Positions 29,522 to 62,597 of a stretch of DNA of 64,000 nt are shown in pieces. This DNA comes from Candidatus Omnitrophota bacterium (GTDB lineage Bacteria > Omnitrophota > Gorgyraeia > Gygaellales > Profunditerraquicolaceae): positions 291,682-355,681 of the forward strand of contig JBAZKL010000003.1 of NCBI GenBank assembly GCA_041650835.1, in the 5' to 3' direction. Numbering within the stretch: the stretch's first letter is position 1; every line of letters starts with the position of its first letter. The notes below the pieces were generated by a model. It saw only the letters and a program-made list of their open reading frames with translations. It was not told the DNA's origin and searched no databases. The translations under genes and the position numbers were made by a program.

Positions 29522-29523
29522 TT

Positions 29524-30627
29524 ATGACGGATAAATCGAAACCTTTCAAATATAGCCCTGATTATGCTGTTCCTCCCGGTGTTACTATTAGTGAATTACT
29601 TAATCATTTAGGAATGACTCAGGTTGAACTAGCCGATAGAACGGGTCGGCCAGAGAAAACAATAAGCGATATAGTAAATGGTAAACAAGGAGTAACTCCG
29701 GAAACTGCGTTACAGTTTGAGCGAGTACTTGGTATGTCAGCAAGCTTTTGGAATAATCTTGAAAAAAATTATCGAGAATCTTTAGTTCGTATTGAAGAGG
29801 TTAAAGCTTTAGAAAAACAAATTAATTGGCTAGAAAACTTTCCAATTGAAAGCATTATTAAAAATGGATGGATGCAGAAACATGATAATGCAGTGGCTCA
29901 ATTGCAAGAGTTGTTATCTTTTATGGGAGTTGCATCACCGAAGGAACTGAGCGTTAGTTGTTCTTCCGCGATTTTCCGAAAATCGAAGAAGATTCAAACA
30001 GATCCTTGGACGCTTTGTGCATGGCTTAGAAAGGGAGAGTTAGAGGCACAATCGGTTGAGTGTAAACCCTATGATAAAAATAAATTTAAGGAATCCTTAT
30101 ATAAAATTCGGGAAATGACAATTACTCCTGATACTCCATCAATTTTACCTCATTGGGGAAAGCTTTGTGCAGAATCTGGAGTGGCGTTAGTTATCATTCA
30201 AGAATTGCCTAAATTAAAAGTCAATGGGGCCACCCGTTGGTTAAAAGATAAGGCAGTAATTCAGCTCTCCCTTTTAAATAAATATGAAGATATTTTATGG
30301 TTTTCTTTTTTTCATGAAGCAGCACATATCTTGTTGCATGGAAGAAAGGATGTTTTTATTGAGGATAGAAATAAATTTGATCAAAATGACATGGAGAAAG
30401 AAGCGGATCAATTTGCTGAAGACTTTCTTGTCCCTCGTAACGAGTACAATGAATTTATATTAAAAGACGATTTTAACCATTCTACCGTAAATAATTTTGC
30501 AAAAAAGATAGGTGTTGGTCCGGGTATTGTAGTAGGAAGGCTTCAGCATGAAGGACTAATTAAATATAACGAACTTGCTAGTTTTAAACCTCGACTTTGC
30601 TGGAAACAACCCTCCAAGAATAACTAA
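29524..30627 (+). CDS. HigA-like HTH antitoxin fused to ImmA/IrrE-family HExxH metallopeptidase domain
   Basis: N-terminal XRE HTH (ISELLNHLGMTQVELADRTGRPEKTISDIVNG) and a C-terminal region with an HEAAH zinc-peptidase motif (FFHEAAHILLHG), COG2856-like. Confidence 0.6.
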   Translation: MTDKSKPFKYSPDYAVPPGVTISELLNHLGMTQVELADRTGRPEKTISDIVNGKQGVTPETALQFERVLGMSASFWNNLEKNYRESLVRIEEVKALEKQINWLENFPIESIIKNGWMQKHDNAVAQLQELLSFMGVASPKELSVSCSSAIFRKSKKIQTDPWTLCAWLRKGELEAQSVECKPYDKNKFKESLYKIREMTITPDTPSILPHWGKLCAESGVALVIIQELPKLKVNGATRWLKDKAVIQLSLLNKYEDILWFSFFHEAAHILLHGRKDVFIEDRNKFDQNDMEKEADQFAEDFLVPRNEYNEFILKDDFNHSTVNNFAKKIGVGPGIVVGRLQHEGLIKYNELASFKPRLCWKQPSKNN

Positions 30628-42861: not shown

Positions 42862-43305
42862 CTATAGATTAAAAAACAAGTAGCCATTCCAATGCGCTCC
42901 AGTTATCTCTTTGGCAATGGCGGATAAAGTCTTATAAATCTTTCCATTATACTCGAAACTTTTCTCAAGTACTTTTACTTGGCGCTTTGTGTTTTTATAT
43001 TCCTTAGTGATTACAGTCCCCGGAATAGGCAGACGCTTATCTTTGGCTGTAACCGGCAGACATGAAGCTGGCTTATCTGGCCTAAGGGCTTTATTATTGA
43101 TAGGATCGTATTCCTCAATAAGTGCTTTCAGTCGACTATTGGCTTTGGCTGATAGGCTGCCTTGTTCACGCTCCTGTAGTCTATAAGCAATCCTTCGCCA
43201 TAGATAGAGCCTATGTGTTCCGGCAGCATCCTCGTCGTAGAGTTCTTTGTACCGCCTTAGAAGCTCTTCAACAGGCGCGTTTTTAAGTGCCATTATCTCA
43301 TTCAT
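42862..43305 (-). CDS. Hypothetical protein co-oriented with the serine recombinase (DUF2924-like, possible directionality/accessory factor)
   Basis: 147 aa; the C-terminal ...YNGKIYKTLSAIAKEITGAHWNGYLFF resembles the small conserved proteins often found upstream of large serine recombinases. Assigned from memory only. Confidence 0.35.
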   Translation of the reverse strand: MNEIMALKNAPVEELLRRYKELYDEDAAGTHRLYLWRRIAYRLQEREQGSLSAKANSRLKALIEEYDPINNKALRPDKPASCLPVTAKDKRLPIPGTVITKEYKNTKRQVKVLEKSFEYNGKIYKTLSAIAKEITGAHWNGYLFFNL

Positions 43306-43637: not shown

Positions 43638-46433
43638 ATGACGCGTAGCGAAGCACAAACTAGACAGCAGATCATTGACCAGCGTCTTAAATTGGTTGGC
43701 TGGGATGTAAAAAATCCAACCCATGTCACCGAAGAGCTTGATATTTGGGTTGGTTTGCCCGATGGTGTTGCCGAGTCACAAACGCCATATCAAGGGCATC
43801 TATTTGCTGATTATGCGCTTCTTGGGCAAGACGGAAAGCCATTGGCTGTAGTTGAGGCAAAAAAGACTTCGGTTGAAGCTGAGAAAGGTAAAGAACAAGC
43901 GCGTATTTATACTGAAAAGATCCAGAAGACTACTGGTGGACCTATGCCGTTTGTGTTTTACACAAATGGTTATGACTTTTTTTTCTGGGATACTGAACGA
44001 TACCCTCCACGAAAAGTATATGGCTTTCCTTCACGAGCTGATTTAGATCGCATGCAATTCCTGCGCGACAATAGTAAAGTTTTATCCAGCGAACTTATTA
44101 ACCCGGCCATTGCGGGCAGGCCGTATCAGCTTCAAGCTATACGGGCAATGCTAGAAAATTTTGAACTCAAGCGTCGAAAGAGCTTGCTTGTTATGGCAAC
44201 TGGTACCGGTAAGACGCGGACTTGTATGGGATTGATTGATGTACTAATGCGTACAAATTGGGTTCAACGTGTTTTGTTTCTAGTAGATAGAATCGCTCTG
44301 CAGGAGCAAGCTCTCGATGCTTTCAAGGAGCATCTGCCTAATGCCCCGATTTGGCCCAAACAAGGGGAAGTTAAATTCGCGACAGATCGTCGGGTTTATG
44401 TTGCTACTTACCCGACTATGTTGAATATTATTGAGCAAGACAATTGTCAACTTACATCACATTTTTTCGATATGATTATTGCGGATGAAAGTCACCGGTC
44501 AATTTATAATGTTTATAAAAACATCTTTGATTATTTCGATACGATACAATTAGGACTTACCGCCACCCCCAAGGATCATGTTGACCATAACACTTTTAAA
44601 CTTTTTAACTGTGAAGAAGGTTTACCTACATTTGCATATTCATATGAAGAGGCTCTTAGTAATATTCCGCCCTATTTATCTGATTTTGAAGTCTTGAAAG
44701 TTAGAACAAAGTTTCAGCAGGAAGGCATAAACAGTAAGACAATAGCCGAGGCAGATAAGAAGCGGCTTCTTGCCGAAGGAAGCGATCCAGACGCCTTTAA
44801 TTTTGAAGGAACAGAATTAGAAAAGAAAATTTCGAATAAAGGGACTAATGCAGTTATTGTCCGCGAATTCATGGAAGAGTGTATTAAGGATCCCAATGGT
44901 GTCCTACCGGGTAAAACCATAATCTTCGCACTTTCTAAGAAGCACGCTTATCGCCTTTGTGAGGTTTTCGATGCTCTCTATCCTGAATACAAAGGTCGTC
45001 TGGCAGAAGTAATTATTTCAGATATCAAAGGAGTTCATGGTAAAGGTGGCATTCTTGATCGATTTAAGAATACCGATATGCCACGTGTAGCTATAAGCGT
45101 TGATATGCTTGATACTGGCATCGATATTCTCGAAGTGGTTAATCTCGTATTTGCCAAACCTGTCTTATCTTTCACGAAATTTTGGCAGATGATCGGACGT
45201 GGGACACGTATTTTAGACTCTGAAAAGATTAAGCCATGGTGTACCGAGAAGGAAAAATTTTTAATTATGGATTGTTGGGAGAATTTTGAGTATTTCAAGA
45301 TGAAACCTAAAGGCAAAGAAGAATCTCCGACAATCCCGCTTCCAGTGCGGCTTTTTGAATCCCGACTCAATAAATTATGGATCGCCCTCGAAGCAAAGGA
45401 AGATGAAATTGCAGAAAAGACAAAGAAGAAAATCCAGGACGATATTAAATCCTTACCACAAAATTCTGTTATTGTTCTCGACCACAAGGAATACTTAGAT
45501 CAGGTACAAGAGGAAGCATTTTGGAAGAAGTTATATTTTGGTGAGATTGACTATCTTCGTATTAATGTTGCGCCTGCCATGCGCGCTAAGTCAGACGCGG
45601 ATTTTAAAGCCATGCATTTCGAGTTAGACGTTGTGGACTTGGCAACAGCACACCTAGCTGGACGCGACGAACAATTTGAGGTATTGAAGGAAGGCATAAT
45701 TGAAACGGTCAGCGAGTTACCCTTAACCGTGAATATTGTCGCGCAGGAAAAGGCGTTTATCGAAAAAGTTCAGAGCAAGAATTTTTGGATAATATTCACT
45801 GATTTAGATCTGGATGAAATGGTAGCGCGCTTAGCGCCACTTATGAAGTTTCGCGAGCAGAATAAAATCAAACAAACCAAGGCTGATTTAATGGATTTAT
45901 TAACTGTTAAAGAGTATATCGAATTTGGCCCTGAGCATGAGCGGCTTACCATTGGTAAATATCGCCAGAAGGTTGAGGACGCAGTTCGTGAACTGATCAA
46001 ATCAAACGAGGTTTTGCAGAAGCTTCTTGCCGGAGATGACCTTTCGGAGGATGAAATCAGAAAATTGGCTGAGATTTTAGAAACCCAATACCCGAACGTT
46101 ACAGAATACATCTTGCGTGAGATTTACGATAATCGAAGCGCGAAGTTTATTCAGTTTATTAAGCACATTTTAGGGTTGGAACCACTAGGGACGTTTACCG
46201 AAACAGTTTCGATGGCGTTTGATGATTTTATCAGAAAACACAATAACTATACTCAACAACAAATCCAATTTTTGTTGACGTTAAAGACATTTATCCTGCA
46301 AAAGGGTAAAGTTGAAAAACGAGACTTAGTTAACGCCCCATTTACCCAATTGCATCCACAGGGTATTCGGGGGATTTTTCAATCGAATGAAATTAATGAG
46401 ATTCTAGCGTTGGCGCAGAAACTTGAGGGCTAA
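43638..46433 (+). CDS. hsdR: Type I restriction enzyme R subunit
   Basis: N-terminal SEAQTRQQIIDQRL...GW motif, DEAD/DEAH helicase motifs (MATGTGKT, DESH) and a C-terminal helical domain; 931 aa. Confidence 0.9.
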   Translation: MTRSEAQTRQQIIDQRLKLVGWDVKNPTHVTEELDIWVGLPDGVAESQTPYQGHLFADYALLGQDGKPLAVVEAKKTSVEAEKGKEQARIYTEKIQKTTGGPMPFVFYTNGYDFFFWDTERYPPRKVYGFPSRADLDRMQFLRDNSKVLSSELINPAIAGRPYQLQAIRAMLENFELKRRKSLLVMATGTGKTRTCMGLIDVLMRTNWVQRVLFLVDRIALQEQALDAFKEHLPNAPIWPKQGEVKFATDRRVYVATYPTMLNIIEQDNCQLTSHFFDMIIADESHRSIYNVYKNIFDYFDTIQLGLTATPKDHVDHNTFKLFNCEEGLPTFAYSYEEALSNIPPYLSDFEVLKVRTKFQQEGINSKTIAEADKKRLLAEGSDPDAFNFEGTELEKKISNKGTNAVIVREFMEECIKDPNGVLPGKTIIFALSKKHAYRLCEVFDALYPEYKGRLAEVIISDIKGVHGKGGILDRFKNTDMPRVAISVDMLDTGIDILEVVNLVFAKPVLSFTKFWQMIGRGTRILDSEKIKPWCTEKEKFLIMDCWENFEYFKMKPKGKEESPTIPLPVRLFESRLNKLWIALEAKEDEIAEKTKKKIQDDIKSLPQNSVIVLDHKEYLDQVQEEAFWKKLYFGEIDYLRINVAPAMRAKSDADFKAMHFELDVVDLATAHLAGRDEQFEVLKEGIIETVSELPLTVNIVAQEKAFIEKVQSKNFWIIFTDLDLDEMVARLAPLMKFREQNKIKQTKADLMDLLTVKEYIEFGPEHERLTIGKYRQKVEDAVRELIKSNEVLQKLLAGDDLSEDEIRKLAEILETQYPNVTEYILREIYDNRSAKFIQFIKHILGLEPLGTFTETVSMAFDDFIRKHNNYTQQQIQFLLTLKTFILQKGKVEKRDLVNAPFTQLHPQGIRGIFQSNEINEILALAQKLEG

Positions 46434-46449
46434 AATTTAAGGAGTAAAA

Positions 46450-48003
46450 ATGCTCACACAAAATATGAAAGCGCTTATAAATTCGCTTTGGGATAAATTC
46501 TGGAGCGGCGGTATTTCAAATCCTCTAACTGCAATTGAGCAAATTTCCTATCTCTTGTTCATGCGTAGGCTGGATGATATGGATACTAAGTTTAAAAGTG
46601 ACTCCGATTTTACTGGTGAGAAATATCAATCTATATTTGAAGGCAAGTTTGCGATCCCAAATACCAAGGAATCGGTTGATAAGGCTACTCTTCGCTGGAG
46701 CTATTTTAAGCAGATGGAAGGTGGTGAAATGCTTAGACACGTCCAGTTGAAGGTGTTTCCATTTGTGAAACAGGTCAATGGTAGAAATACGGTTTTTACA
46801 AAGCAGATGGAGGATGCGGTATTTATTATTCCTAAAGCATCTCTTCTAGTTGAGGCGGTCAGTATTATTGATAAGCTCTACGAAGAAATTGAGATCGGAA
46901 TGCGGGGAGGGCAAACATTTCATGATACCCAAGGCGATATGTATGAATTCCTTCTGGCAGAAATTGCCACAGCTGGGAAGAATGGTCAATTTCGTACGCC
47001 ACGGCATATTATTCAGATGATGTGTGAGCTTGTGGATCCTAAAATGTTAGAGCTTGTCTGCGACCCAGCGTGTGGTACTGGTGGTTTCTTGCTTGGTGCT
47101 TACCAACATATTTTAACTCACTATACGAGTAAAAATCGTCTGCAGAAAGACGAGAATGGCTTTATGCGGGGCACTTTGGCCGATAAACTCACAGATGAGC
47201 GATTATGGAAACAACTGAAAGAGGAAACATTTTATGGTTATGATTTTGATTCAACCATGGTTCGTATAGGTTTGATGAATCTTATTCTTCACGGAATTTC
47301 CTATCCAAATATTAATCGTAGGGACACGCTTTCTAAAAACTACAATGAGGATAATAAATATCATGTTATTTTGGCTAATCCTCCATTTAAAGGGAGCATT
47401 GATGAGGGCGATATAAATGAAAGTTTATCTTTAGATACAACAAAGACAGAGCTTCTTTTTGTTAATCGCATTATTAATTCATTACGGATTGGTGGTCGTG
47501 CTGGCGTTATTGTGCCGGATGGTGTTCTTTTTGGCTCAAGCAGAGCACATAGAGATTTACGTAGGATGTTAATTGATAAGTGTGAACTTCAAGGTATTAT
47601 TTCTATGCCAAGTGGAGTTTTTAAGCCGTACGCCGGAGTTAGTACTGCGGTTTTAGTTTTTGTTAAAGGGGGAACGACAGAAAAGGTGTGGTTTTACGAT
47701 ATGCAGGCAGATGGGTATTCGCTTGATGACAAACGTGAAAAGATTGAGACGACAGATCTGCCGACTATTGTAGAAGAATGGGGAAATCGGCATAAAGGAA
47801 AGGACAATGATCGTAAAGCCAAACATTTTTTTGTACCCGTTAAAGAAATTATCAACAAAGATTATGATCTAAGTATTAATCGCTATAAAGAAATCGACTA
47901 TCAGCCAGTCAAATATGAAAAACCAGAGAAAATTCTATTAAAGATCGAGAAAATAGAATGTGACATACAAAAAGGTATTAAGGACTTAAAGGATTTATTG
48001 TAA
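46450..48003 (+). CDS. hsdM: Type I restriction-modification N6-adenine DNA methyltransferase subunit
   Basis: HsdM N-terminal domain, AdoMet motif I (DPACGTGGF) and catalytic NPPF. Confidence 0.9.
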   Translation: MLTQNMKALINSLWDKFWSGGISNPLTAIEQISYLLFMRRLDDMDTKFKSDSDFTGEKYQSIFEGKFAIPNTKESVDKATLRWSYFKQMEGGEMLRHVQLKVFPFVKQVNGRNTVFTKQMEDAVFIIPKASLLVEAVSIIDKLYEEIEIGMRGGQTFHDTQGDMYEFLLAEIATAGKNGQFRTPRHIIQMMCELVDPKMLELVCDPACGTGGFLLGAYQHILTHYTSKNRLQKDENGFMRGTLADKLTDERLWKQLKEETFYGYDFDSTMVRIGLMNLILHGISYPNINRRDTLSKNYNEDNKYHVILANPPFKGSIDEGDINESLSLDTTKTELLFVNRIINSLRIGGRAGVIVPDGVLFGSSRAHRDLRRMLIDKCELQGIISMPSGVFKPYAGVSTAVLVFVKGGTTEKVWFYDMQADGYSLDDKREKIETTDLPTIVEEWGNRHKGKDNDRKAKHFFVPVKEIINKDYDLSINRYKEIDYQPVKYEKPEKILLKIEKIECDIQKGIKDLKDLL

Positions 48004-49157
48004 TGAATAAGCAGGTGAATATTATCGATGCTGTCGAAATAATAAATAATCGAGTAAGGCCATTTAAGGGGCAGCGAAGATATTTAGCAACCGGTGACTT
48101 GGCTGGTGATGAAATTAATGAAACTGCTTTTGTGGATTATGAATCTAGGCCTAGCCGAGCAGATTTATTGGTAAATGAGGGCGAGATTATAGTTGCTCGC
48201 ATGCAAGCTACTAATAAAGTTCTCTTGATTGATGATACGACGAAAGATCTTATTGTTTCTACAGGATTTTTAACGCTTGCTCCGAAAAAAGGCTTTGATA
48301 TAAGATATCTTGCTCATTATTTTCGATCTGATATATTTCAACGCCAAAAAGACAGATATTGTTCTGGCGCAACGCAAAAAGCCATCAATAACGGGGCTTT
48401 TGAAAAATTATGTGTTCCAAGTTATCCGCTAGATGAGCAAAGAAAGATCGCTAAAATTTTAAGCCATGTTGAATTATTACGCCAGAAACGCAAGCAATCA
48501 TTTTGGTTTCTTAATGATTTTCTTCATGCAACATTCTTGCACATGTTTGGGGATCCTATACAAAATCCTAATAATCTGGCACAGAAGAAAATCGGAGAGC
48601 TCGGAAAAGTTATTACTGGCAACACTCCCCCTCGCCATAAGAAGGAATATTATGGAAATTATATTGAATGGATTAAATCAGATAATATAAATACACCACA
48701 ATTTACACTTACGAGAGCAGAGGAATATTTATCGAAAAAGGGTGCAGGAGTCGGTAGGGTTGCTCCTAAAGGATCAGTGTTGGTGACATGTATAGCCGGT
48801 ACGCCCGATTGTATTGGTAATATTGCAATGGCAGACCGTGAAGTTGCGTTTAATCAACAAATTAATGCATTTGTCCCGGGAGGAGAAATCTCCCAAACAA
48901 TATTTTTTGCCCAGGTGTTATTTTGCAAGAAGCTGATTCAACAAGCATCTACAAACAGCATGAAGGGTCTTGTATCAAAAGGCAAATTTTCTGAGATCAA
49001 AATTATCGTTCCTCCCAAAAAACAGCAAAATCGATTCGAAGCAATATTTGATAGGGTTGTGATCTTACGTTTACAGCAGCAAAGAAGCGCATTAGAGCTG
49101 GATAATCATTTTAATGTTTTAATACAAAAAGTATTTGGAGAAGCTGAAAATGTTTAA
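48003..49157 (+). CDS. hsdS: Type I restriction-modification specificity subunit
   Basis: Two target-recognition domains separated by conserved coiled-coil spacers; start overlaps the hsdM stop. Confidence 0.8.
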   Translation: MNKQVNIIDAVEIINNRVRPFKGQRRYLATGDLAGDEINETAFVDYESRPSRADLLVNEGEIIVARMQATNKVLLIDDTTKDLIVSTGFLTLAPKKGFDIRYLAHYFRSDIFQRQKDRYCSGATQKAINNGAFEKLCVPSYPLDEQRKIAKILSHVELLRQKRKQSFWFLNDFLHATFLHMFGDPIQNPNNLAQKKIGELGKVITGNTPPRHKKEYYGNYIEWIKSDNINTPQFTLTRAEEYLSKKGAGVGRVAPKGSVLVTCIAGTPDCIGNIAMADREVAFNQQINAFVPGGEISQTIFFAQVLFCKKLIQQASTNSMKGLVSKGKFSEIKIIVPPKKQQNRFEAIFDRVVILRLQQQRSALELDNHFNVLIQKVFGEAENV

Positions 49158-49812: not shown

Positions 49813-49997
49813 AGAAATAGACATTTAGCTAAGGTAATGACGTGGTTAAGTAAATAAAATAATAATGGAAAACGGTATGCCTGAAGCGAAACAAATTATT
49901 GTTGAAGACGAAACTCTAAATGCGGTTACAAGCGACAACCTTTTTGAGAAAATCAATATTCCCCTCAGACGGATAAGTAATAAAAGGAGGTTTGAAC

Positions 49998-51392: not shown

Positions 51393-53132
51393 ATGAAGAT
51401 AAGATCACTAAAAATCCATAATTTCCGTTCAATTCTGGATTCACCCGAGATAATTTTTAACGACTTCTCATTATTAGTTGGAGCAAATAATGTCGGGAAG
51501 TCTAACTTAATCGATGTTTTAAGAATTTTATATGATGATGAAAAATTTGATAGTAAACGAGATTTTCCCAAGGTTTCTTTAAAACCAACCGATAATGAAA
51601 GTTGGGTTGATGTTAAATATATCCTTTCTGAAGAAGAATATAAGAATTTGCCTGATTATGCTAAAAAATTTACAAATAAATTAAGAATCAGAAAATATTT
51701 TAAATCTGACAATTCAGAACAGTTCAAATCTGGTCAGAGCAATATCTTTGCTTATGAAGAAGAAGGAGTGATATCTAAGAACCTGTTTCATGGAGCCAAG
51801 AATGTTTCTGAAGCAAAACTTGGACGGATTATATTTATTCCATCAGTTAACAAAACAGAAGATGTATTAAAAACTTCTGGTCCCTCTCCTTTGAGGCAGA
51901 TAGCTACATTTGTTTTTGAAAAAGTTGCCAAGAAAAGTCCTGCTTTTAATAATCTTGAAACGGCGTTTTCGAGTTTTGAGAGTGATTTTTCTACTGAATC
52001 TTCTTCAGATGGTTTTTCTATCAAAGATCTTATTGTCGATGTGAATAAGCATCTGGAGGAATGGCAGATATCATTCGGCATAAATATTAAAAAAATTAAG
52101 ATTGATGATATCATCAAAAACTTATTTGAGCATAATTGGAAAGATGATAACCTTGACGGTGAGGTTATAGACATAAATCAATATGGTCAGGGGTTTCAGC
52201 GCCACATAATCTATACACTTATTAAGTTATCAGCAAAGTATGTAGATAAAAGAACATCAAGCAAAAAAGAATTTATACCAGAATTTACGCTGATTCTATT
52301 TGAGGAACCAGAAGCATTTTTGCATCCGGCTCAGCAGGAAATATTACATGCGGGTTTGAAAGAAATCACTAGCGATGGGGAAGAACAAACCCAGGTTTTA
52401 ATTTCGACTCATTCCCCCATTTTTGTATCTAGAAACATTGATGATTTAACTTCGGTAATTAGATTGCAAAAGGAAAAAGGAAATACTAGGATTTCACAAA
52501 TTACCGAAATTAATGAGGATATTTTGTTCGGTGAAAATGCAAAATTGCTAGATTTTTTAAAAACAAAGTTAACTGAAACGTCAACTCCCGCAGATGTAAA
52601 ATCAGAAATTAAAAATATTGTTAATGGAACCGATGATTCTCTTAAGCTAGAAGAAGAATCAATGCGATATTTTTTATGGTTGAATTCAGAAAGGTGCTCA
52701 TTATTTTTTGCTGATTTTGTAATTATTTGTGAGGGAGCATCAGAAAAAATATTTGTTGAGTATTTGTTTAAATCAAAATGGGAAGATTTACGAAAGAAAC
52801 GTATTTATTTACTTGACGCAGGAGGTAAATACAATATTCATAGGTATATGAATTTATTTGAATTGTTATGTATTTCCCACAGCATTTTGTTGGATTCTGA
52901 TGGTGATAGGAAACATCAGAAATATATAAATGAATTTATTGATAGTAATAAGCGTCCCCAAACTAGATCGATTCATAAGTTTAATCCTGATTTTGAGAAT
53001 TTTCTAACTATTACTCCTGCTAAGAGGCCCGATAAAAAGCCTTTAAATGTATTTCTACATTTTCGAAATGGAAAAATTACTGATGCTAAGATAAATGAGC
53101 TGAAAGAAATTATTCAAAGAATTAGTACTTAG
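51393..53132 (+). CDS. OLD-family ATP-dependent endonuclease (ABC-type ATPase + Toprim)
   Basis: Walker A GANNVGKSN, Walker B/D-loop LILFEEPEAFLHP and a C-terminal Toprim with the EGxSE-type motif (VIICEGASEKIFVE). Confidence 0.75.
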   Translation: MKIRSLKIHNFRSILDSPEIIFNDFSLLVGANNVGKSNLIDVLRILYDDEKFDSKRDFPKVSLKPTDNESWVDVKYILSEEEYKNLPDYAKKFTNKLRIRKYFKSDNSEQFKSGQSNIFAYEEEGVISKNLFHGAKNVSEAKLGRIIFIPSVNKTEDVLKTSGPSPLRQIATFVFEKVAKKSPAFNNLETAFSSFESDFSTESSSDGFSIKDLIVDVNKHLEEWQISFGINIKKIKIDDIIKNLFEHNWKDDNLDGEVIDINQYGQGFQRHIIYTLIKLSAKYVDKRTSSKKEFIPEFTLILFEEPEAFLHPAQQEILHAGLKEITSDGEEQTQVLISTHSPIFVSRNIDDLTSVIRLQKEKGNTRISQITEINEDILFGENAKLLDFLKTKLTETSTPADVKSEIKNIVNGTDDSLKLEEESMRYFLWLNSERCSLFFADFVIICEGASEKIFVEYLFKSKWEDLRKKRIYLLDAGGKYNIHRYMNLFELLCISHSILLDSDGDRKHQKYINEFIDSNKRPQTRSIHKFNPDFENFLTITPAKRPDKKPLNVFLHFRNGKITDAKINELKEIIQRIST

Positions 53133-53144
53133 CGCAAAAACGAT

Positions 53145-54272
53145 ATGAAGTTAGTTCATTTCTCAGATACGCATTTAGGTTTTTCTGATTACAATAAGGT
53201 TGATCCAGAAACAGGTATCAACTTAAGAGAAGCCGATGTATATCATGCCTTTGCGCGGGTTATTGATTACATTATCAATAACCCGCCAGATATAGTAATT
53301 CACTCTGGTGATCTTTTTGATACTCATAGGCCTTCCAATAGAGCTATCAATATTGCTTTAAAAGAAATTGCAAAAATATCTCAAAAACAAATCCCCCTTG
53401 TAATGATTTCGGGTAATCATTCAACGCCGCGCGTAAAAACCTCCGGTTCTATTTTCGAAATATTCGAAATATTCGATAATGTATATCCAGTATATCAATC
53501 AAAGTATAAAGAGATTATCATAAAAGATGCAGCATTGCATTGCGTACCACATATGGCTACAGAAGAGGAGTTAAGGAAGGTTTTTGATAATCTCAAGCCA
53601 AACAGTAAGGTTAAGTATAATATAATAATTGCTCACATGGGAGTGACAGCAGATGTACAGTATAAGATGGGTGAGTTCAACGAATTGATTATTCCCTACG
53701 GCGTCATTAAGAAAAAAAACAATTTTGATTACATAGCTCTTGGCCATTATCATAAAAACCTACTCCTAGCAGACAATTGTTATTATTCAGGTTCAACGGA
53801 ACGTTTTAGTTTTAATGAGGTAGGGCAGGATAAAGGATTTATCGAAGTAAATCTATCTCAGAAGAAAACGGTGTTTATTCCTCTAAAAGTACGAGAAATG
53901 ATAGCTTTGGAATCAATTGATTGTCGAGATCTCAATATAAATGAGATTGTTAAGAAAGTGGAGCAACTCATTACTGGAAAAACCCTGGGGAGTATACTTC
54001 AGGTTACTTTTGATAATATAAAAAAACACCAATACGCCGAGTTAAACTTTCAAAAACTAAGAGACTTAACTAAAGATGCTGTTCATCTGAAAATAATCTG
54101 CAATTGGATGAGTGAAAAAGGGAAGGAAAGCACTAATACCGCGATAGGTACGCTTTCGGCAGAATTTGAGAGCTTTATCGAACACCAAGATATCAAAGAT
54201 TTAGATAAGAAAAAACTCAAAGAATTAGGAATAAATTATCTTTCGATTACTCAGGGGGCAGAGGAAGAATAA
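53145..54272 (+). CDS. sbcD: SbcD/Mre11-family nuclease (calcineurin-like phosphoesterase)
   Basis: Phosphoesterase motifs HFSDTHLG, GDLFD, GNHS and the later His motifs; 12 nt after the OLD gene. Confidence 0.8.
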   Translation: MKLVHFSDTHLGFSDYNKVDPETGINLREADVYHAFARVIDYIINNPPDIVIHSGDLFDTHRPSNRAINIALKEIAKISQKQIPLVMISGNHSTPRVKTSGSIFEIFEIFDNVYPVYQSKYKEIIIKDAALHCVPHMATEEELRKVFDNLKPNSKVKYNIIIAHMGVTADVQYKMGEFNELIIPYGVIKKKNNFDYIALGHYHKNLLLADNCYYSGSTERFSFNEVGQDKGFIEVNLSQKKTVFIPLKVREMIALESIDCRDLNINEIVKKVEQLITGKTLGSILQVTFDNIKKHQYAELNFQKLRDLTKDAVHLKIICNWMSEKGKESTNTAIGTLSAEFESFIEHQDIKDLDKKKLKELGINYLSITQGAEEE

Positions 54273-56678
54273 ATGTTTTTAAGAAGCCTTAAATTAAAAA
54301 ACTATAGGAAGTTTCGAGAAGAAATAATCGAATTCCCAGAAGGCATAATAGCTGTAATAGGACCTAATGGTGCAGGAAAATCCTCTATTTTAGAGGCCAT
54401 AGGATGGACTTTGTATGGCAACGCAATGGCGCGGACAGACAAGCTAGAAGTAAAGAGTCAAAATGCTTCTGAGGAAGAAGGCTGTGAAGCCGAACTTGTC
54501 TTTGATTTTGGAGACCACTCATACAAGATTTTTAGAGAGCTCAAGGGGAAAAACGCTATTTCGAATGCGTTAGCATATGTAGATGGAAGTATAGATCCTA
54601 TTGCAGAAAGAGATAGTGGTGTCAATCAATATATAGAAAGTTTGCTTGGGATGGATTACGGCACTTTCATAAAAACTGTTTATGCTAAACAAAAAGAATT
54701 AGCGGCTTTTTCGATTCTTCGTGCGGAAGATAGGAAAAAAGTCATAAGGAGGATGCTTAATATTGATCGTATTGACTTAGCCGTGACGAAAATTAGATCA
54801 GACGAGAGAGATAAACAGAAATTTATCGAAGGTATTCAAACTAGTCTTGAAGATCTTGATAAGTTAGAACAAGAAAAAAACGATATCATAAACCAACAGA
54901 AAAAGATAAATAAAGATGTCAATGATCGTGCCTTGACTTTAAAAACTATTGCGGAGGACAGGGATAAAATAAAGAAAGATAAAGATCATCAAGAACAAAA
55001 ATTTAAGATTTTTAATTCTTTTAATAAAGATAGCTCTCGTTTTGATACACAAAAATCCTCACTTGATAGAAGATTGAAAGAATTATTGAAGGAGCTAGGA
55101 GAATTAAAACAAAAAAAAGAGTCATTGGAAAAAATAGAATCTAAAGAACAGGAATATTTGAAAACTAAAAAAGATAAAGAGGATCAAGAAACATTGCGCT
55201 TACAATATCAAGAAAAGGTTGCCTTAATAAAGAGAATCAAGGAGAACAACGATGATATGGCTCAACGTTAAGGCAAGCATAAATTATCCACAGAACAATT
55301 AAAAGACTTTTCCGGAGCGCAGGAAGATTCAGACAAAACAGAAAAAACTATACATGAACAAGAAATTATAAGAAGAAGGCTTGAGAAAGAGACTAAAGAA
55401 ATTGAAGGAGAAGTGCGTATTTGTTCTTCGAAAATCGGAGAATTGCTATCACAAAAAAAGAAGTTCACTCAATTAGGCAGAAATGGCAAATGTCCTACTT
55501 GTTTCCGTGAGTTAGGAGACAATTACGAGGATATAGGAGGACATATTGATAGTGAGATAAAAAGCATTAAAGAAAAATTGCAACCAATACAAGAAAAAAG
55601 AGATAAGCTTAACAAACAATTAGAGGAGGTTATTGAGAATATAGATAAATTGGTTGAGAAAAAAAATAAACTAAATGAGAAATTGAAAAGAAAGTCTAGA
55701 GCTGAACAATCAATCGAAGAGCAAGACATCGAAATTAAAAAACTAAAAATAAAAATCGAGAAAGAAAAAGAGAAGCTAGAGGGCATGAGGGATATTAAAT
55801 TTGATCAAAACGCTTACGAGAAATTGGTAGATAAATTTGATGCGTTGTCAGAAATTAGGGATACTATTTTAGCGTTAAGAAAAGAAATTCAGAGAATTCC
55901 TAAAATCAATGAGATGATAGATGCTACGGAAAAAGAAATACAACTATTAGATTCTCAAATTAAACAAGTAGAAGATGAGCTAAAGAAGCTAGATTTTGAT
56001 GAGGGTAAATATGATAGGGTTAAAGCCAGCTATGAAGTTATAAATGATAAATTAAGCGAAATACAGAATAAATTGAATGATTCTAAAAGTCAACTCGCAG
56101 TTTCGAAGCAGAGACTGATCAATCTTGAAGAAAAGATTGATCGTCAAAAAGCGAGTAGAAATAAAATAGAAGAAGCTCGTGCGGTGCTTCAATATCTACA
56201 GCGTCTTGAATCTCTCCTGGAGAGTTTTAGGCTTGAATTAACAAGCAGAATTCGTCCTTTACTTGAGACCAGGGCTTCTTATCTTTTTAGTGAAATTACA
56301 AATGGACGTTATCCTTCTATAGAATTAGATGAAGACTACGAAATGTCTATACTCGATGGTAATAAAGTTTTTAGATTAAAAAGATTCTCGGGAGGAGAAG
56401 AAGATCTAGCCAATTTATGCCTAAGAATAGCAATGTCACAAGTTATCGCAGAGCGGAGTGGAGGCATAGAGATAAATTTTATTGCTTTAGACGAAATATT
56501 CGGTAGTCAAGATGAAGACCGTAGACAAAATATCTTGAATTCTCTTAATAAATTAGCATCTCAGTTTCGTCAGATTTTTTTGATTACTCATATAGAAGAT
56601 ATTAAAGAGATGCTTTCTAGGGTTTTACTGGTAGAGGAGAATATTACGACCAAGGAAAGCAAGGTGTCATTAGGATAA
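54273..56678 (+). CDS. sbcC: SbcC/Rad50-family ATPase, interrupted by one in-frame TAA (55269-55271)
   Basis: N-terminal Walker A (GPNGAGKSS), long coiled coil with a CPTC zinc hook, and C-terminal signature and Walker B/D-loop (LDEIFGSQD). ORFs 54273..55271 and 55413..56678 share one frame and are separated only by a single TAA, with no other stops. Confidence 0.7.
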
Positions 56679-59094: not shown

Positions 59095-60375
59095 ATGAAG
59101 ATTCAAAAAATAAAAGTTTCGGAAATAAACCCCGCCGTTTATAACCCTCGCATTACGCTTCGTCCGGGCGATGCCGAGTACGAACGTCTTAAGAAGAGCA
59201 TCTTAACATTCGGCTTGGTCGAGCCTCTTATCCTTAATAAGCGCACAGGTAATCTTGTTGGTGGTCACCAGCGACTAAATATCTTAATTGAACAAGGCGT
59301 AACGGAAGTGGAAGTAAGCATAGTGGATTTGTCGCTAGAAATGGAGAAAGCTCTCAATATAGCACTCAACAAAATCTCTGGCGCCTGGGATGAGGAGAAA
59401 CTTTCAACACTACTATCCGAAATGCAAAAGATCCCGGATTTTGAAGTGGGGCTAACGGGTTTTGAGCCAAAAGAGATAAGTGAGCTCTTGGATGAGTTTG
59501 CTACGCCGCAGGAAGAAGATGACTTTGATTTCGAAGCAGAAGTCAATTCCATGCAGGAGCCGATCACAAAGCGAGGAGATATTATCGAGCTTGGTAGACA
59601 CAGAATCATATGTGGTGATTCATCTTCGTTAGAGGACGTAAAAGCGCTGATCGGTAACGAAAAAATCAACCTTATCCATACCGACCCGCCTTATAACGTC
59701 AACTACTATGGCGGTAATCGTCCGGTTCCAAATGTTCGACCAAAAGAGTCCAGAAATTGGGAGAGGATATATTCTGATAACTTAAACCAGGAGGAATATG
59801 AGATCTGGCTTAAGAAGATATTCAGTAATGTAGACTCTTTTCTTGAGACTGGTGCGTCCTTCTACATTTGGAATGGGCACAAGCAGTTCGGCCAGATGCA
59901 TGTGATGCTCGAGGGATTAGGTTATCATATTGCCTGTGTTATAACCTGGGCAAAGCCTAATTTTGCGATATCGTATGCTGACTATAATCAGCAAACGGAA
60001 TTCTGTTTGTACGGCTGGAAGAAGGATAATGGCGCTCACGCCTGGTATGGTCCTACCAACGCAAGTACTCTTTGGGAAATTAAGCGCGACAGCACTAAAG
60101 AATACATCCACCCTACCCAGAAGCCGACAGCGTTAGCGCAAAGAGCCATGAAGAATAGTTCGAAGCGTGGCGACATTGTCTTGGATCTATTCCTGGGATC
60201 TGGTTCGACATTGATAGCCGCTGAAGGTCTGGAAAGAAGATGTTTTGGCTTGGAGATCGATCCTAAGTATTGCGACTCGATCATTAGGCGCTACATTTCT
60301 TATGTAGGTAAGGATAAAGCTCCGGCTGATCTTGTGAAAAAGTATTGCAAGGAGGAGCAACATGTCGGCAAATAA
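59095..60375 (+). CDS. ParB-like nuclease domain fused to N6/N4 DNA methyltransferase (phage-type orphan methylase)
   Basis: N-terminal ParB/Srx fold (LVGGHQRL) and a C-terminal MTase with DPPY (IHTDPPYNV) and an AdoMet-binding region. Confidence 0.8.
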   Translation: MKIQKIKVSEINPAVYNPRITLRPGDAEYERLKKSILTFGLVEPLILNKRTGNLVGGHQRLNILIEQGVTEVEVSIVDLSLEMEKALNIALNKISGAWDEEKLSTLLSEMQKIPDFEVGLTGFEPKEISELLDEFATPQEEDDFDFEAEVNSMQEPITKRGDIIELGRHRIICGDSSSLEDVKALIGNEKINLIHTDPPYNVNYYGGNRPVPNVRPKESRNWERIYSDNLNQEEYEIWLKKIFSNVDSFLETGASFYIWNGHKQFGQMHVMLEGLGYHIACVITWAKPNFAISYADYNQQTEFCLYGWKKDNGAHAWYGPTNASTLWEIKRDSTKEYIHPTQKPTALAQRAMKNSSKRGDIVLDLFLGSGSTLIAAEGLERRCFGLEIDPKYCDSIIRRYISYVGKDKAPADLVKKYCKEEQHVGK

Positions 60376-61036
60376 CGACCAGGCTAATAAAGAGCAACCG
60401 ATTCTTGCGCTCATTCAGGATATAAAAGATGGCCGCATAGCTCCGGAAACCATCGACAAGGAGTTGCGTCAGCAGTGTATTGAGGTGTTTTTGGCTGAAG
60501 GCTATACCACTTCTTCAATAGCTCAGATATTCAAAAAGACCGATAGGACAATTCGTCGGGATATAGAGGATATAAGAGCGCAAAACGCCATTACCCCGGA
60601 TATAGACCTGGCTAAGAAGACCATCGGCGAAATGGTTGTATATATGCATACTCACCGAGCTTATCTTATGCGCCTTGCTCGCTTAAAAGATGCCTCAGTA
60701 GCTGAAAAAGCTCAGGCCGAATACCTGGCCGCTCGTATTGGTATCGAACTAGTCGCCAGGCTGCAAACCTTGGGGTTCCTACCTTTAAAGCCTCAGGAGA
60801 TTATTGCTGACATCTCTCACCATGTAACCGCCGATAACGAGAGTTCGTTTGACGAGTTGAGATCTCAGATAGTGGAAATCGAGAGAATTTCGAAGGAGTC
60901 TGGAGAGCTAACGCCGGAAATGACAAAAGAACTTGAGAACTTGAAGAAGAGAATTGAAAAAGCGGAAATACAAGATAAGGTAACTAAAATATTATCCCAT
61001 ACGGATGAGAAAGGAAAAGATGAAAAAGATAATTGA
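60362..61036 (+). CDS. Putative terminase small subunit / HTH DNA-binding protein
   Basis: Internal HTH (TTSSIAQIFKKTDRTIRRDIEDI) and a charged coiled-coil tail; positioned immediately upstream of, and overlapping, the terminase large subunit. Confidence 0.4.
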   Translation: MSANNDQANKEQPILALIQDIKDGRIAPETIDKELRQQCIEVFLAEGYTTSSIAQIFKKTDRTIRRDIEDIRAQNAITPDIDLAKKTIGEMVVYMHTHRAYLMRLARLKDASVAEKAQAEYLAARIGIELVARLQTLGFLPLKPQEIIADISHHVTADNESSFDELRSQIVEIERISKESGELTPEMTKELENLKKRIEKAEIQDKVTKILSHTDEKGKDEKDN

Positions 61037-62597
61037 AAATATCAGCAGTGAGATTGTGAGGTTCAGGAGGAGGGTGGGGATGGATTTCATCAGCTTCCGC
61101 AATTTTTATTTCCCAAATTATAATAAAAATCCTGACGGTGAATTCCAAAAAGAATTATCACAGATCCTCGTCAATATGAAGACTAAAAGAGGCGCGCGAT
61201 ATGCGATAGCGGCGCCACGGGGGTTCGCAAAGAGCACGATCGTAGGGTTACAGTATGTGATCTATTGTATCTGTTATAAGCTAGAGGATTTTATTGTGCT
61301 AGCTTCAAGCACAAGTAGCCAGGCGACGGATTTCTTGAGACACATTAAAGAAGAATTCGAAGCTAATGAAAGATTAAAAGCGGATTTCCCGGAAGTCTGC
61401 GAAGTCGGCAGCAAGCTAAGTCCTCCTCGCTGGACACAAAGCGAGATTATCACCAGTAATGACGTAAAAGTTATTGCTCTAGGTACAGGGCAGCAGCTTA
61501 GAGGTCGTAGACACAAAGAATCGCGGCCTACGCTGATAATTCTCGACGATATCGAAACCGATGAGACGGTGGAGAATCCTGACAGTCGTTATAAACTGGA
61601 AGATTGGATAAATAAAACCGTCTTAAAGGCAGGCGAAGCAAGGACCAATGTTATAATTATTGGTACGTTGCATCACCCTGCCTCGTTATTAGCCAAATAC
61701 ACTGATTCCAAGCAATCCCCCGGCTGGACTAGCAAAGTATATAAGGCGATAATATCGTATGCAGAACGCGTTGAATTATGGGAAGAATGGAAGCGGATAC
61801 TTCTAGGAAAAGAGCCCTACAATGGTGAATTTGGTTTAGATGCGGCGCTGGCGTTTTACAAAAAGCACGAAAGCGTCATGCTAAAAGGAGTAAAACTTCT
61901 ATGGCCAGAATTCAAAAGCTACTATGATCTTATGCTGATGAGAGAACAAGAGGGGTATTCCAGCTTTGATTCCGAGATGCAAAACGAACCCATAAATCCA
62001 CGGGACTGTGCTTTTAATATGGAAGAGGTGAGTTTTTGGGAGGATGGATTTGAATCCGAGGACAATCTAATGCATGTAATGCGCCATGAGATACTTTGTT
62101 ATGGAGCATGCGATCCAAGCCTTGGTAGAGAAGGGAAACAAAGTGATGATTCGGCCATAGTTGTTGTAGCCTGGAATCCGGAAAAAGGGAAGATATATAT
62201 ACTGGAGGCCGATATCGCCAGGCGAAGCCCTGATAAGACGATTGAAGATATCTTAGCCTATCATATGAACCGCGAGATTATAGGGTTTGGTTTTGAAACC
62301 AACCAATTTCAAGAAGTGATGGCTCAGGACCTTATGAGGCGTGCAAGGGAAGGGTGCATAGCAATAAAACTTAAGGAAATAAGAAATACCGTTGATAAAC
62401 TTGCCAGGATCCAGTCTCTCCAGGTCCTCATTAAGAGCGGCACCATACTGTTCTCTAGGAAGCACCAGACATTGCTTGAACAGTTAAGGTATTTCCCTAA
62501 GGGGCCTCATGACGATGGACTGGATGCGCTGGAGATGGTAGTGCGGTTGTGCTATAAGCCATCGAGAAACCCAAGATGCTTATCTATACCGCGGTAA
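61005..62597 (+). CDS. Phage terminase large subunit
   Basis: Walker A (APRGFAKST), Walker B (LIILDDIE), and a C-terminal RNaseH-like nuclease domain with conserved Asp residues (ACDPSLGREGKQSDDSAIVVV). Confidence 0.8.
   Translation: MRKEKMKKIIENISSEIVRFRRRVGMDFISFRNFYFPNYNKNPDGEFQKELSQILVNMKTKRGARYAIAAPRGFAKSTIVGLQYVIYCICYKLEDFIVLASSTSSQATDFLRHIKEEFEANERLKADFPEVCEVGSKLSPPRWTQSEIITSNDVKVIALGTGQQLRGRRHKESRPTLIILDDIETDETVENPDSRYKLEDWINKTVLKAGEARTNVIIIGTLHHPASLLAKYTDSKQSPGWTSKVYKAIISYAERVELWEEWKRILLGKEPYNGEFGLDAALAFYKKHESVMLKGVKLLWPEFKSYYDLMLMREQEGYSSFDSEMQNEPINPRDCAFNMEEVSFWEDGFESEDNLMHVMRHEILCYGACDPSLGREGKQSDDSAIVVVAWNPEKGKIYILEADIARRSPDKTIEDILAYHMNREIIGFGFETNQFQEVMAQDLMRRAREGCIAIKLKEIRNTVDKLARIQSLQVLIKSGTILFSRKHQTLLEQLRYFPKGPHDDGLDALEMVVRLCYKPSRNPRCLSIPR

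What the first reader, a model, noticed from the sequence alone, without database searches (positions are those of the whole stretch)
55200..55420. Single in-frame TAA splits the SbcC/Rad50-like gene; the reading frame is otherwise uninterrupted
Codon-by-codon reading shows that ORFs 54273..55271 and 55413..56678 share one frame. The 141 nt between them contain no further stops. That stretch continues the coiled coil into the CPTC zinc hook. The protein would be an intact 801-aa Rad50-like ATPase but for this one TAA. Possibilities are a recent nonsense mutation (decaying defence gene), a sequencing or assembly error, or programmed readthrough or a split-subunit arrangement. Other genes in the window use TAA as a normal stop, which argues against recoding.
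Basis: seen in the sequence. Interest (0 to 1): 0.6.

Follow-up and report, generated by a model that had tools for sequence, protein, structure and literature searches.

The report
Recent nonsense mutation in Rad50-like gene
A single C-to-T change has turned a glutamine codon into a stop in the middle of an otherwise intact Rad50-type DNA-repair/defence ATPase gene carried on a mobile island of an Omnitrophota bacterium, which is an ordinary, evolutionarily young gene break rather than recoding or a designed split.

Summary
Window 54273..56678 (+) is one reading frame of 802 codons, broken only by TAA at 55269-55271 (codon 333). All orthologs examined encode one uninterrupted protein of about 801 aa: 18 close ones and 79 of 80 distant loci. 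The nearest relative (89% nt identity, no indels) and the next two carry CAA (Gln) at this codon, so the stop is a lineage-specific CAA>TAA transition. Three assemblies give the same product, and the two whose DNA I compared are base-identical, so mis-assembly is unlikely. Recoding is rejected. TAA ends 28 of 44 genes in the window, including the Mre11-like gene 1 kb upstream, and no suppressor tRNA is present in the window. dN/dS across the stop (0.12) and on the window branch matches the intact relatives. No second stop or indel has accumulated in the 468 downstream codons. The break is therefore young (less than about 16-22% of the branch), or the pieces are still used. A two-chain Rad50 translated from GTG 55413 cannot be excluded but has no positive support. 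The gene pair lies in an AT-rich integrative island next to tRNA-Glu, among restriction-modification, OLD-nuclease and TIR genes. Verdict: an ordinary recent pseudogenising mutation, of low interest.

The parts
53145..54272 (+). Mre11/SbcD-like phosphoesterase gene (375 aa), intact. Its TAA stop abuts the ATG of the Rad50-like gene.
   Evidence: Pfam Metallophos 1.5e-17 and NCBIfam sbcd TIGR00619 above its cut-off. It is 94.7% identical to the L003 ortholog, with dN/dS 0.09. The same gene lies directly upstream in at least 45 of 80 distant loci.
54273..55271 (+). 5' part of the Rad50-like gene: codons 1-332 plus the premature TAA. It encodes the N-terminal head lobe (Walker A GPNGAGKS at residues 30-37, Q-loop Q140) and about 165 residues of ascending coiled coil.
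   Evidence: AF2 model of the collinear ortholog.
55269..55271 (+). Premature stop TAA (codon 333), derived from CAA (Gln).
   Evidence: L003, L004 and L005 have CAA. L006 and L009 have GAG/GAA.
55272..55412 (+). 141 nt in frame and free of stops (codons 334-380). It still encodes the conserved ascending coiled-coil segment and would not be translated unless the stop is read through.
   Evidence: 42/47 residues identical to the intact ortholog P0122. dN/dS 0.07.
55413..56678 (+). 3' part of the gene, from the first in-frame canonical start (GTG, codon 381). It encodes the zinc hook, the descending coiled coil and the C-terminal head lobe (signature SGGE 706-709, Walker B DE 740-741, H773).
   Evidence: An AGGAG lies only 2 nt upstream of the GTG. 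No promoter-like site lies in the gap.
55491..55502 (+). CPTC zinc-hook motif (codons 407-410).
   Evidence: C407 and C410 are invariant in 42 orthologs and P408 is nearly so. The motif sits in the loop between the ascending and descending helices of the AF2 model.
55219..55276 (+). Window-specific perfect 9-nt inverted repeat (55219-55227 / 55268-55276). Its 3' arm contains the stop codon and the neighbouring derived G at 55272.
   Evidence: The RNA hairpin has -17.2 kcal/mol and z = -3.15, and is absent in orthologs (3-6 of 9 positions complementary).
51393..53132 (+). OLD-family ATPase-TOPRIM nuclease gene (579 aa) immediately upstream of the Mre11/Rad50 pair.
   Evidence: Pfam AAA_15 + OLD-like_TOPRIM. 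PADLOC Old 1.7e-55. It is syntenic in L003 (95% identity over the last 100 aa).

Best explanation
The TAA at 55269-55271 is a genuine, lineage-specific and evolutionarily recent nonsense mutation (CAA Gln333 > TAA, one C>T transition). It lies in an archaeal-type Rad50/SbcC-like ATPase gene that is normally one 801-aa polypeptide, co-transcribed with an Mre11-like nuclease gene. Translation from ATG 54273 now ends after 332 residues. That product has the Walker A/Q-loop lobe and part of the ascending coiled coil. It lacks the zinc hook, the descending coil, and the signature, Walker B, D-loop and H-loop motifs, so it cannot form an ATPase site on its own. The gene is therefore most likely inactivated, or at best severely weakened. 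The break is so recent that no further decay has accumulated. Shown here: the stop, its ancestral state, its absence in orthologs, the normal use of TAA, and the lack of relaxed selection. Inferred: loss of function, and that the cause was either a neutral accident or counter-selection of a costly island gene.
For: One frame with a single stop.
Eighteen orthologs at 40-89% identity are collinear proteins of about 801 aa. P0001 and P0002 only appear shorter because their starts were mis-called.
The nearest relative L003 is 89% identical in DNA without any indel and has CAA at codon 333, as do L004 and L005.
79 of 80 distant family loci are uninterrupted.
The same 332-aa product is on record from NCBI, JGI, ENA and Logan. 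The ENA and Logan contigs are 100% identical to the window, including the TAA.
TAA ends 28 of 44 genes, including the upstream Mre11 gene.
dN/dS window vs L003 is 0.12, against 0.11-0.13 for intact pairs. Branch-polarised synonymous/nonsynonymous counts are 44/36 for the window and 60/46 for L003 (p = 0.88).
There is no second stop in the 468 downstream codons. About 19 (equal rates) would be expected had the region been neutral along the whole branch, so the stop is younger than about 16-22% of that branch.
The AF2 model of the collinear ortholog (pLDDT 84) places residue 333 inside ascending helix 290-344, about 70 residues before the hook. All C-terminal catalytic motifs lie after the stop.
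Against: Unchanged purifying selection on both halves fits a very recent break, but it fits a still-functional two-piece gene equally well.
Only one population carries the allele, and no closer relative (more than 90% identity) exists in the collections searched. Fixation and age therefore cannot be measured directly.
Raw reads could not be inspected. The assemblies may all derive from the same read set.
Confidence: 0.75

Rival explanations
1. Tolerated or functional split. The N-terminal 332-aa fragment and a C-terminal 421-aa fragment started at GTG 55413 are both made. They reassemble through the antiparallel coiled coil and the two head lobes into a working two-chain Rad50.
For: Both halves show the same strong purifying selection as intact orthologs, and no further lesion exists.
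An in-frame GTG with an AGGAG just upstream exists at codon 381. The three closest relatives use GTT, GTC and GTA there.
Solved Rad50 head structures such as 1F2T, 1II8, 1US8 and 3QKR were deposited as separate N- and C-terminal chains, so the lobes can associate non-covalently.
On the window branch the 47 gap codons have 2 synonymous and 4 nonsynonymous changes, against 7 and 0 on the L003 branch (p = 0.02 uncorrected). This is what one expects if only the gap lost constraint.
Against: No ortholog is split at or near this site.
The AGGAG-GTG spacing is 2 nt, shorter than 10 of the 12 other motif-to-start spacings found in the window (1-11 nt).
All four Val codons occur at that site among relatives, so GTG has about a 1 in 4 chance expectation.
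No promoter-like site lies in the gap.
A GTG-started fragment would lack 47 residues of the ascending helix, leaving part of the descending helix unpaired.
The gap-relaxation signal rests on 13 substitutions, was found post hoc, and disappears with four outgroups (p = 0.21).
Confidence: 0.12
2. Sequencing or consensus artefact, or a minority allele. The organism's real, or majority, sequence has CAA and the gene is intact.
For: All sequences carrying the stop may come from one sample. Reads were not available. The only other contig of the lineage found (L003, 89% identity) is intact.
Against: NCBI/JGI (434,960-bp contig), ENA MEGAHIT (369,946 bp) and Logan (9,178 bp) assemblies all record the same 332-aa product. 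The ENA and Logan contigs are 100% identical to the window over 19.7 and 9.2 kb, including the TAA.
A substitution error in a consensus is far rarer than a real nonsense allele. About 1 in 80 family members carries one.
The site is not in a homopolymer or a simple repeat.
Confidence: 0.06
3. Programmed readthrough or codon reassignment. The TAA is decoded as an amino acid, giving the full 801-aa protein.
For: The frame is open and conserved on both sides of the stop. The stop lies in the 3' arm of a locally stable hairpin (z = -3.15).
Against: TAA is the commonest stop in the window (28 of 44) and ends the adjacent Mre11 gene at the position where its orthologs end.
None of the six tRNAs in the window has a UUA anticodon.
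The stop is not conserved in any ortholog, and neither is the hairpin.
From general knowledge, UAA is read by both release factors and is the least leaky stop. Known readthrough-stimulating structures lie downstream of the stop rather than around it.
Confidence: 0.02

Closest known systems
Archaeal Rad50-Mre11 (Pyrococcus furiosus, Methanocaldococcus jannaschii; PDB 3QKU, 5F3W, 3AUX, 5DNY) and bacterial SbcCD (PDB 6S6V, 7YZP)
   Same: Gene order mre11 then rad50, with abutting ORFs. An ABC-ATPase head split between the N and C termini. A long antiparallel coiled coil with a central CxxC hook. The best sequence matches are archaeal Rad50 heads (E 1e-31) and the best fold matches are Rad50 (7ZR1 E 7e-26; archaeal heads TM 0.7-0.8). 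NCBIfam's best models are archaeal Rad50 and Mre11.
   Different: Shorter (801 aa against about 880-1050). Far below the curated Rad50 equivalog cut-offs (116 and 80 bits against 700). No Pfam Rad50_zn_hook hit. Located in an AT-rich mobile island beside OLD, TIR and R-M genes rather than a repair operon with herA/nurA. In this genome it is interrupted by a stop.
Engineered two-chain Rad50 catalytic domains (PDB 1F2T, 1II8, 1US8, 3QKR)
   Same: The N-terminal and C-terminal halves are separate polypeptides that associate into one ATPase head. This is the physical precedent for the split-subunit reading.
   Different: Those are laboratory constructs that lack the coiled coil and hook. Here the break is a natural nonsense codon within the coil, and expression of the C-terminal piece is unproven.
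Ordinary bacterial pseudogenes created by a single nonsense mutation, common in accessory and defence islands
   Same: One point mutation, an otherwise intact frame, intact orthologs in relatives, and a location in horizontally acquired DNA. A second independent case occurs in the same family (L044, TAG just before Walker B).
   Different: Nothing substantive. The only special features are its youth (no secondary lesions) and its position in a local inverted repeat.
SMC/ABC-ATPase defence components (Lamassu LmuB, PARIS AriA, PbeC/DndD, Gabija GajA)
   Same: Weak PADLOC hits to the ATPase head and coil (E 1e-13 to 1e-17), and a defence-island neighbourhood.
   Different: The hits are partial and generic to the ABC head. 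The partner genes of those systems are absent, and the partner here is an Mre11-type phosphoesterase. No evidence shows that this pair is a defence system.

Membership tests
Rad50/SbcC (ATPase of the Mre11-Rad50 complex) | N-terminal Walker A P-loop and Q-loop | tested here: met
   GPNGAGKS at residues 30-37. G30, N32, G33, G35, K36 and Q140 are invariant in 18 and in 42 orthologs. Pfam AAA_23, SMC_N and AAA_29 hits.
Rad50/SbcC (ATPase of the Mre11-Rad50 complex) | C-terminal signature motif, Walker B, D-loop and H-loop | tested here: met
   S706-G-G-E709 and D740-E741 are invariant, and H773 is invariant or nearly so. Pfam SbcC_Walker_B 2.6e-07. All lie downstream of the premature stop.
Rad50/SbcC (ATPase of the Mre11-Rad50 complex) | Long antiparallel coiled coil with a central CxxC zinc hook | tested here: met
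   The AF2 model of the collinear ortholog P0003 (pLDDT 84) has helices 165-401 going up, a loop at 402-416, and helices 417-675 coming down. C407 and C410 are invariant. Pfam Rad50_zn_hook itself gave no hit at E<=0.001. Zinc binding is not testable here.
Rad50/SbcC (ATPase of the Mre11-Rad50 complex) | Adjacent, co-oriented Mre11/SbcD phosphoesterase gene | tested here: met
   53145..54272 has Metallophos and TIGR00619 sbcd at 94.6 bits, above its cut-off of 77.65. It is conserved directly upstream in all 6 close loci and in at least 45 of 80 distant loci.
Rad50/SbcC (ATPase of the Mre11-Rad50 complex) | Score above the curated NCBIfam Rad50/SbcC cut-offs | tested here: not met
   The best model, PRK03918, gives 115.7 bits (N half) and 80.3 bits (C half) against a cut-off of 700. 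TIGR00618 sbcc gives 79.6 and 51.1 against 478.5. This is a divergent Rad50-like clade, named only 'SMC family ATPase' by NCBI.
Rad50/SbcC (ATPase of the Mre11-Rad50 complex) | Encoded as one uninterrupted polypeptide | tested here: not met
   TAA at codon 333 in the window. The feature is met in 18 close orthologs and in 79 of 80 distant loci.
Rad50/SbcC (ATPase of the Mre11-Rad50 complex) | ATP-dependent DNA end or hairpin processing together with Mre11 | not testable with these tools
   This needs biochemistry.
Stop-codon reassignment or programmed readthrough | The stop codon is not used as a terminator elsewhere, or it is conserved in orthologs together with a stimulatory element | tested here: not met
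   TAA ends 28 of 44 genes. Orthologs have CAA, GAG or GAA at the site. The hairpin is window-specific. No suppressor tRNA lies in the window; the rest of the genome was not available.
Naturally split (two-gene) Rad50 | Orthologs encode two ORFs with their own start signals at the same point | tested here: not met
   None of the 18 close orthologs is split. Only 1 of 80 distant loci is interrupted, and at a different site.
Naturally split (two-gene) Rad50 | A credible translation start for the downstream piece | tested here: inconclusive
   GTG 55413 has an AGGAG 2 nt upstream. Only 13 of 44 genes here have any Shine-Dalgarno-like motif, with spacings of 1-11 nt. No expression data exist.
Known anti-phage systems with SMC/ABC ATPases (Lamassu, PARIS, Pbe/Dnd, Gabija) | A full-length match to the system's ATPase, plus its partner genes | tested here: not met
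   Only partial PADLOC hits at 45-59 bits. No LmuA/LmuC, AriB, PbeABD or GajB partners among the neighbours.

The most novel reading that the evidence does not exclude
The stop has converted a one-chain Rad50 into a working two-chain enzyme. An N-terminal head-plus-coil fragment would combine with a hook-bearing C-terminal fragment started at GTG 55413, and selection would maintain both. This would explain why both halves still evolve under dN/dS of about 0.12 while the 47 codons between the TAA and the GTG show a hint of relaxation. A lesser novelty concerns how the stop arose. The stop and the neighbouring T>G change may have come from one quasipalindrome template-switch event that perfected a 7/9 inverted repeat.
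Probability: 0.1. Interest if true: 0.45.

Novelty: already known. Interest (0 to 1): 0.12.

Why it matters
It matters little beyond annotation. The two ORFs that NCBI deposits as separate proteins (MFA5118797.1 and MFA5118798.1) are the halves of one nonsense-interrupted gene and should be flagged as a pseudogene. The case is a clean example of how young a gene break can be: one substitution, no secondary decay, and an intact operon partner. It is also one more case of an accessory or defence-island gene being knocked out. Only if the two fragments proved to be co-expressed and active would it become a natural experiment on whether the Rad50 coiled coil must be covalently continuous.

Tried and rejected
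1. Alternative alleles in JGI metagenome contigs. I searched with the lineage-specific 21-mer GCTCAACGTNAAGGCAAGCAT. The only match (L091) is an unrelated contig with different flanks and no BLAST similarity to the window, so it is a chance match. No CAA allele and no further TAA carrier was found.

2. Literature. A search for an OLD + SbcCD defence module returned 32 papers sharing at least three terms, but none was opened and the titles and abstracts listed describe no such module. A search for a deviant genetic code in Omnitrophota found no paper.

3. Partner genes in the 80 distant loci. tblastn for OLD, HerA, NurA, the AAA_23 protein and TIR found nothing at 1e-6. Only weak hits appeared at 1e-3 (14 for the L009 OLD, 2 for the window OLD), probably ABC-head cross-matches. 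Neighbours other than Mre11 are therefore not conserved.

4. The hairpin argument. All four window-vs-L003 differences in the two arms raise their complementarity (from 6/9 to 9/9). This first looked like evidence for a selected hairpin. I rejected it as ascertainment: once the window repeat is required to be perfect, every difference in a relative must lower the complementarity. The rate of change (4 of 18 nt) is not unusual either.

5. Phase variation. No homopolymer or simple repeat lies at the site.

6. An internal promoter for the 3' half. No sigma-70-like site lies on the + strand in 55272-55412.

7. Frameshifting is irrelevant, because both ORFs are in the same frame.

Full report
**The observation**

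Window 54273..56678 (+) translates as one frame of 802 codons with a single internal stop, TAA at 55269-55271 (codon 333). The ORF list gives 54273..55271 (332 aa) and 55413..56678 (421 aa, GTG start) in the same frame. The 141 nt between them carry no stop. At the local composition (35% GC) a 47-codon open stretch has a chance probability of about 0.02. More to the point, those 47 codons are 42/47 identical in protein to the nearest intact ortholog. One detail of the finding needs correcting. The CPTC motif (codons 407-410, nt 55491-55502) lies in the second ORF, 26 codons after the GTG, not in the gap.

**What the gene is**

- The N-terminal part hits AAA_23, SMC_N and AAA_29, and the C-terminal part hits SbcC_Walker_B.
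- The best NCBIfam models are archaeal Rad50 (PRK03918), but far below the curated cut-offs.
- The upstream gene 53145..54272 is an Mre11/SbcD phosphoesterase. Its TAA abuts the ATG at 54273.
- The closest solved sequences are the M. jannaschii and P. furiosus Rad50 heads.
- An AlphaFold model of the collinear 801-aa ortholog P0003 (42-sequence alignment, mean pLDDT 84) shows the classical Rad50 anatomy:
  - head lobe at residues 1-165
  - ascending helices at 165-401
  - hook loop at 402-416
  - descending helices at 417-675
  - second head lobe at 682-800
- Foldseek puts Rad50 of the MRN complex first (7ZR1, E 7e-26), and archaeal Rad50 heads score TM 0.7-0.8.
- Residue 333 lies inside helix 290-344 of the ascending coil.

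**Source and reality of the stop**

The 332-aa product is on record from NCBI (MFA5118797.1, MAG of Candidatus Omnitrophota), JGI, ENA and Logan. The ENA contig (369,946 bp) and the Logan contig (SRR8542065, 9,178 bp) are 100% identical to the window over 19.7 and 9.2 kb, including the TAA. The NCBI/JGI contig is 434,960 bp long, which makes it a separate assembly. Mis-assembly is therefore unlikely. I could not show that the underlying reads are independent.

**Orthologs**

- A search with the fused protein found many full-length relatives, and the best 17 align collinearly at about 801 aa.
- P0001 and P0002 look shorter only because their starts were mis-called. In both, MFLR... follows the Mre11 stop directly.
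- The 90%-identity cluster of the window's N-terminal ORF contains an 801-aa member, P0122.
- The P0122 gene (L003:1443-3848) is 89.2% identical in DNA to the window gene, with no indel, and has CAA where the window has TAA.
- L004 and L005 also have CAA at this codon. L006 and L009 have GAG and GAA.
- Among 80 loci of the wider family in species-representative genomes (bacteria and archaea), 79 are uninterrupted.
- The one exception is L044, a Nitrosopumilaceae MAG. It has an in-frame TAG at a different place, just before Walker B, where its relative L027 has Gln.

The family is therefore a single-chain protein, and the window's stop is a private CAA>TAA transition.

**Recoding**

TAA terminates 28 of the 44 long non-overlapping ORFs in the window. 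It ends the Mre11 gene at the same position as in its orthologs. None of the six tRNAs in the window could read UAA. From general knowledge, UAA is recognised by both release factors. I consider reassignment or programmed readthrough rejected.

**Age and selection**

- Nei-Gojobori dN/dS between the window and L003 is 0.12 overall. By segment it is 0.11 (N part), 0.07 (gap) and 0.14 (C part). Intact pairs give 0.11-0.13.
- I polarised substitutions with L004 and L005 as outgroups. The window branch has 44 synonymous and 36 nonsynonymous changes, and the L003 branch has 60 and 46 (Fisher p = 0.88).
- The 468 downstream codons contain about 84 equal-rate 'nonsense sites'. Had they been neutral along the whole branch (dS about 0.22), about 19 further stops would be expected. 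None is seen.
- This puts the stop within the last ~16% of the branch, or about 22% with a transition bias of 3 (and my own arithmetic).
- The Mre11 partner is intact, with dN/dS 0.09.

The break is therefore very young, or both pieces are still under selection. These data cannot separate the two possibilities.

**The split-gene alternative**

- The first canonical in-frame start after the stop is GTG at 55413 (codon 381), with an AGGAG only 2 nt upstream. Only 13 of 44 genes in the window have a Shine-Dalgarno-like motif at all, with spacings of 1-11 nt.
- The Val codon at that position is GTT, GTC and GTA in the three nearest relatives, so GTG may be a coincidence.
- No promoter-like site lies in the gap.
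- PDB entries with separate N- and C-terminal Rad50 chains show that the lobes can associate non-covalently.
- A GTG-started piece would lack 47 residues of the ascending helix.
- On the window branch the gap has 2 synonymous and 4 nonsynonymous changes, against 7 and 0 on the L003 branch (p = 0.02). With four outgroups this falls to p = 0.21, and the test was post hoc.

I give this reading about 0.1.

**Origin of the mutation (a lead, not a result)**

- The stop lies in the 3' arm of a perfect 9-nt inverted repeat: TTGCCTTAA at 55219-55227 and TTAAGGCAA at 55268-55276, with a 40-nt loop.
- As RNA, this region folds into a hairpin of -17.2 kcal/mol, z = -3.15.
- Orthologs have only 3-6 of the 9 positions complementary and do not form this hairpin.
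- The two derived changes in the 3' arm are 55269 C>T, which makes the stop, and 55272 T>G. Both are exactly the bases complementary to the 5' arm.
- The two changes in the 5' arm are synonymous.
- This is the pattern expected from quasipalindrome template switching. However, perfect repeats of 9 nt or more cover 3.6% of the gene. Conditioning on a perfect repeat in the window also biases the comparison. I regard the pattern as suggestive at most.

**Context**

- The backbone of the window is about 50% GC, while roughly 44-60 kb is 33-40% GC.
- tRNA-Glu lies at 40836-40913.
- It is followed by a large serine recombinase (41258..42853, -) and a DUF2924 gene.
- Next come a type I R-M system, DUF6602 and two unknown genes.
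- Then come the OLD-family nuclease, the Mre11/Rad50 pair, a TIR protein, a ParB-methyltransferase and a terminase-like gene.

This reads as an integrative mobile element with defence-type cargo.

The Mre11/Rad50 cassette itself is found next to different neighbours in each relative:

| Locus | Neighbours of the cassette |
|---|---|
| L003 | OLD upstream, AEP-like primase downstream |
| L005 | SNF2 helicase, RNase H-like gene |
| L006 | NurA, HerA |
| L009 | R-M genes, a diverged OLD |

**Verdict**

This is a real, private, recent nonsense mutation in a Rad50-like gene on a mobile island. It is an ordinary phenomenon. Interest is low.

Noticed in passing
window 40836-62597: An AT-rich block (33-40% GC against about 50% for the backbone) starts beside tRNA-Glu (40836-40913). 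It carries a large serine recombinase (41258..42853, -), DUF2924 (42862..43305, -), type I R-M hsdR/M/S (43638..49157), DUF6602, OLD, Mre11/Rad50, a TIR protein, a ParB-N6/N4 methyltransferase (59095..60375) and a terminase-like ORF (61005..62597). It looks like an integrated mobile element or prophage remnant with defence cargo. Its ends were not mapped.
   Followed up: partly
window 51393-53132; L003:1-303; L009:6868-8796: An OLD-family ATPase-TOPRIM gene sits directly upstream of the Mre11/Rad50 pair in the window and in L003 (95% identical over the last 100 aa). A very diverged OLD (about 22% identity) sits in the same place in another Omnitrophota MAG (L009/L010). No clear OLD match was found in the 80 distant loci (only weak tblastn hits at 1e-3, nothing at 1e-6). 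This could be a functional OLD-Mre11-Rad50 module or just island neighbourhood.
   Followed up: partly
window 55219-55227 / 55268-55276: A perfect 9-nt inverted repeat (RNA hairpin -17.2 kcal/mol, z = -3.15) is present only in this lineage. Its 3' arm contains the premature TAA and the adjacent derived G. Both derived bases are the complements of the 5' arm, as expected for a quasipalindrome template-switch mutation.
   Followed up: partly
L044:6001-8370 (Nitrosopumilaceae MAG OZ242365.1): This is a second, independent interruption in the same protein family. An in-frame TAG lies just before the Walker B motif, where the related L027 has Gln. It was the only interrupted copy among the 80 loci.
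   Followed up: partly
L004:2220-4622; L005:6826-9231: The database proteins P0001 (793 aa) and P0002 (784 aa) have mis-called starts. In both loci the frame opens with ATG (MFLR...) immediately after the Mre11 stop, giving about 801 aa like all other orthologs.
   Followed up: yes
window 53145-56678 vs L003:315-3848: Synonymous divergence between the window and L003 is uneven along the operon. dS is about 0.20 for the OLD 3' end, 0.26 for Mre11, and 0.45 for Rad50 (0.54 in the coiled-coil part). This could reflect recombination mosaicism or poor dS estimation in the A-rich, low-complexity coil.
   Followed up: no
window 56998-58851: In a 617-aa protein only the N-terminal ~130 residues match TIR models (retron RT-TIR, ThsB, PDC-S66). 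The remaining ~480 residues have no family hit. In L003 this position is occupied by an AEP-like primase gene instead.
   Followed up: no
window 28000-30700: A second low-GC patch (33%) holds a weak HigB-like toxin ORF (29189..29521) followed by an HTH + M78 (IrrE-like) peptidase ORF (29524..30627). This may be a toxin-antitoxin or a small inserted element.
   Followed up: no
window 12578-12737: 6S RNA (Rfam RF00013, 62.7 bits), in the backbone part of the window.
   Followed up: no
window 49992-51313: Two ORFs (about 293 and 145 aa) lie between DUF6602 and the OLD gene. They have no Pfam, NCBIfam or PADLOC match. The TTG start listed at 49992 is probably wrong, since gene callers start 6 nt later.
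   Followed up: no
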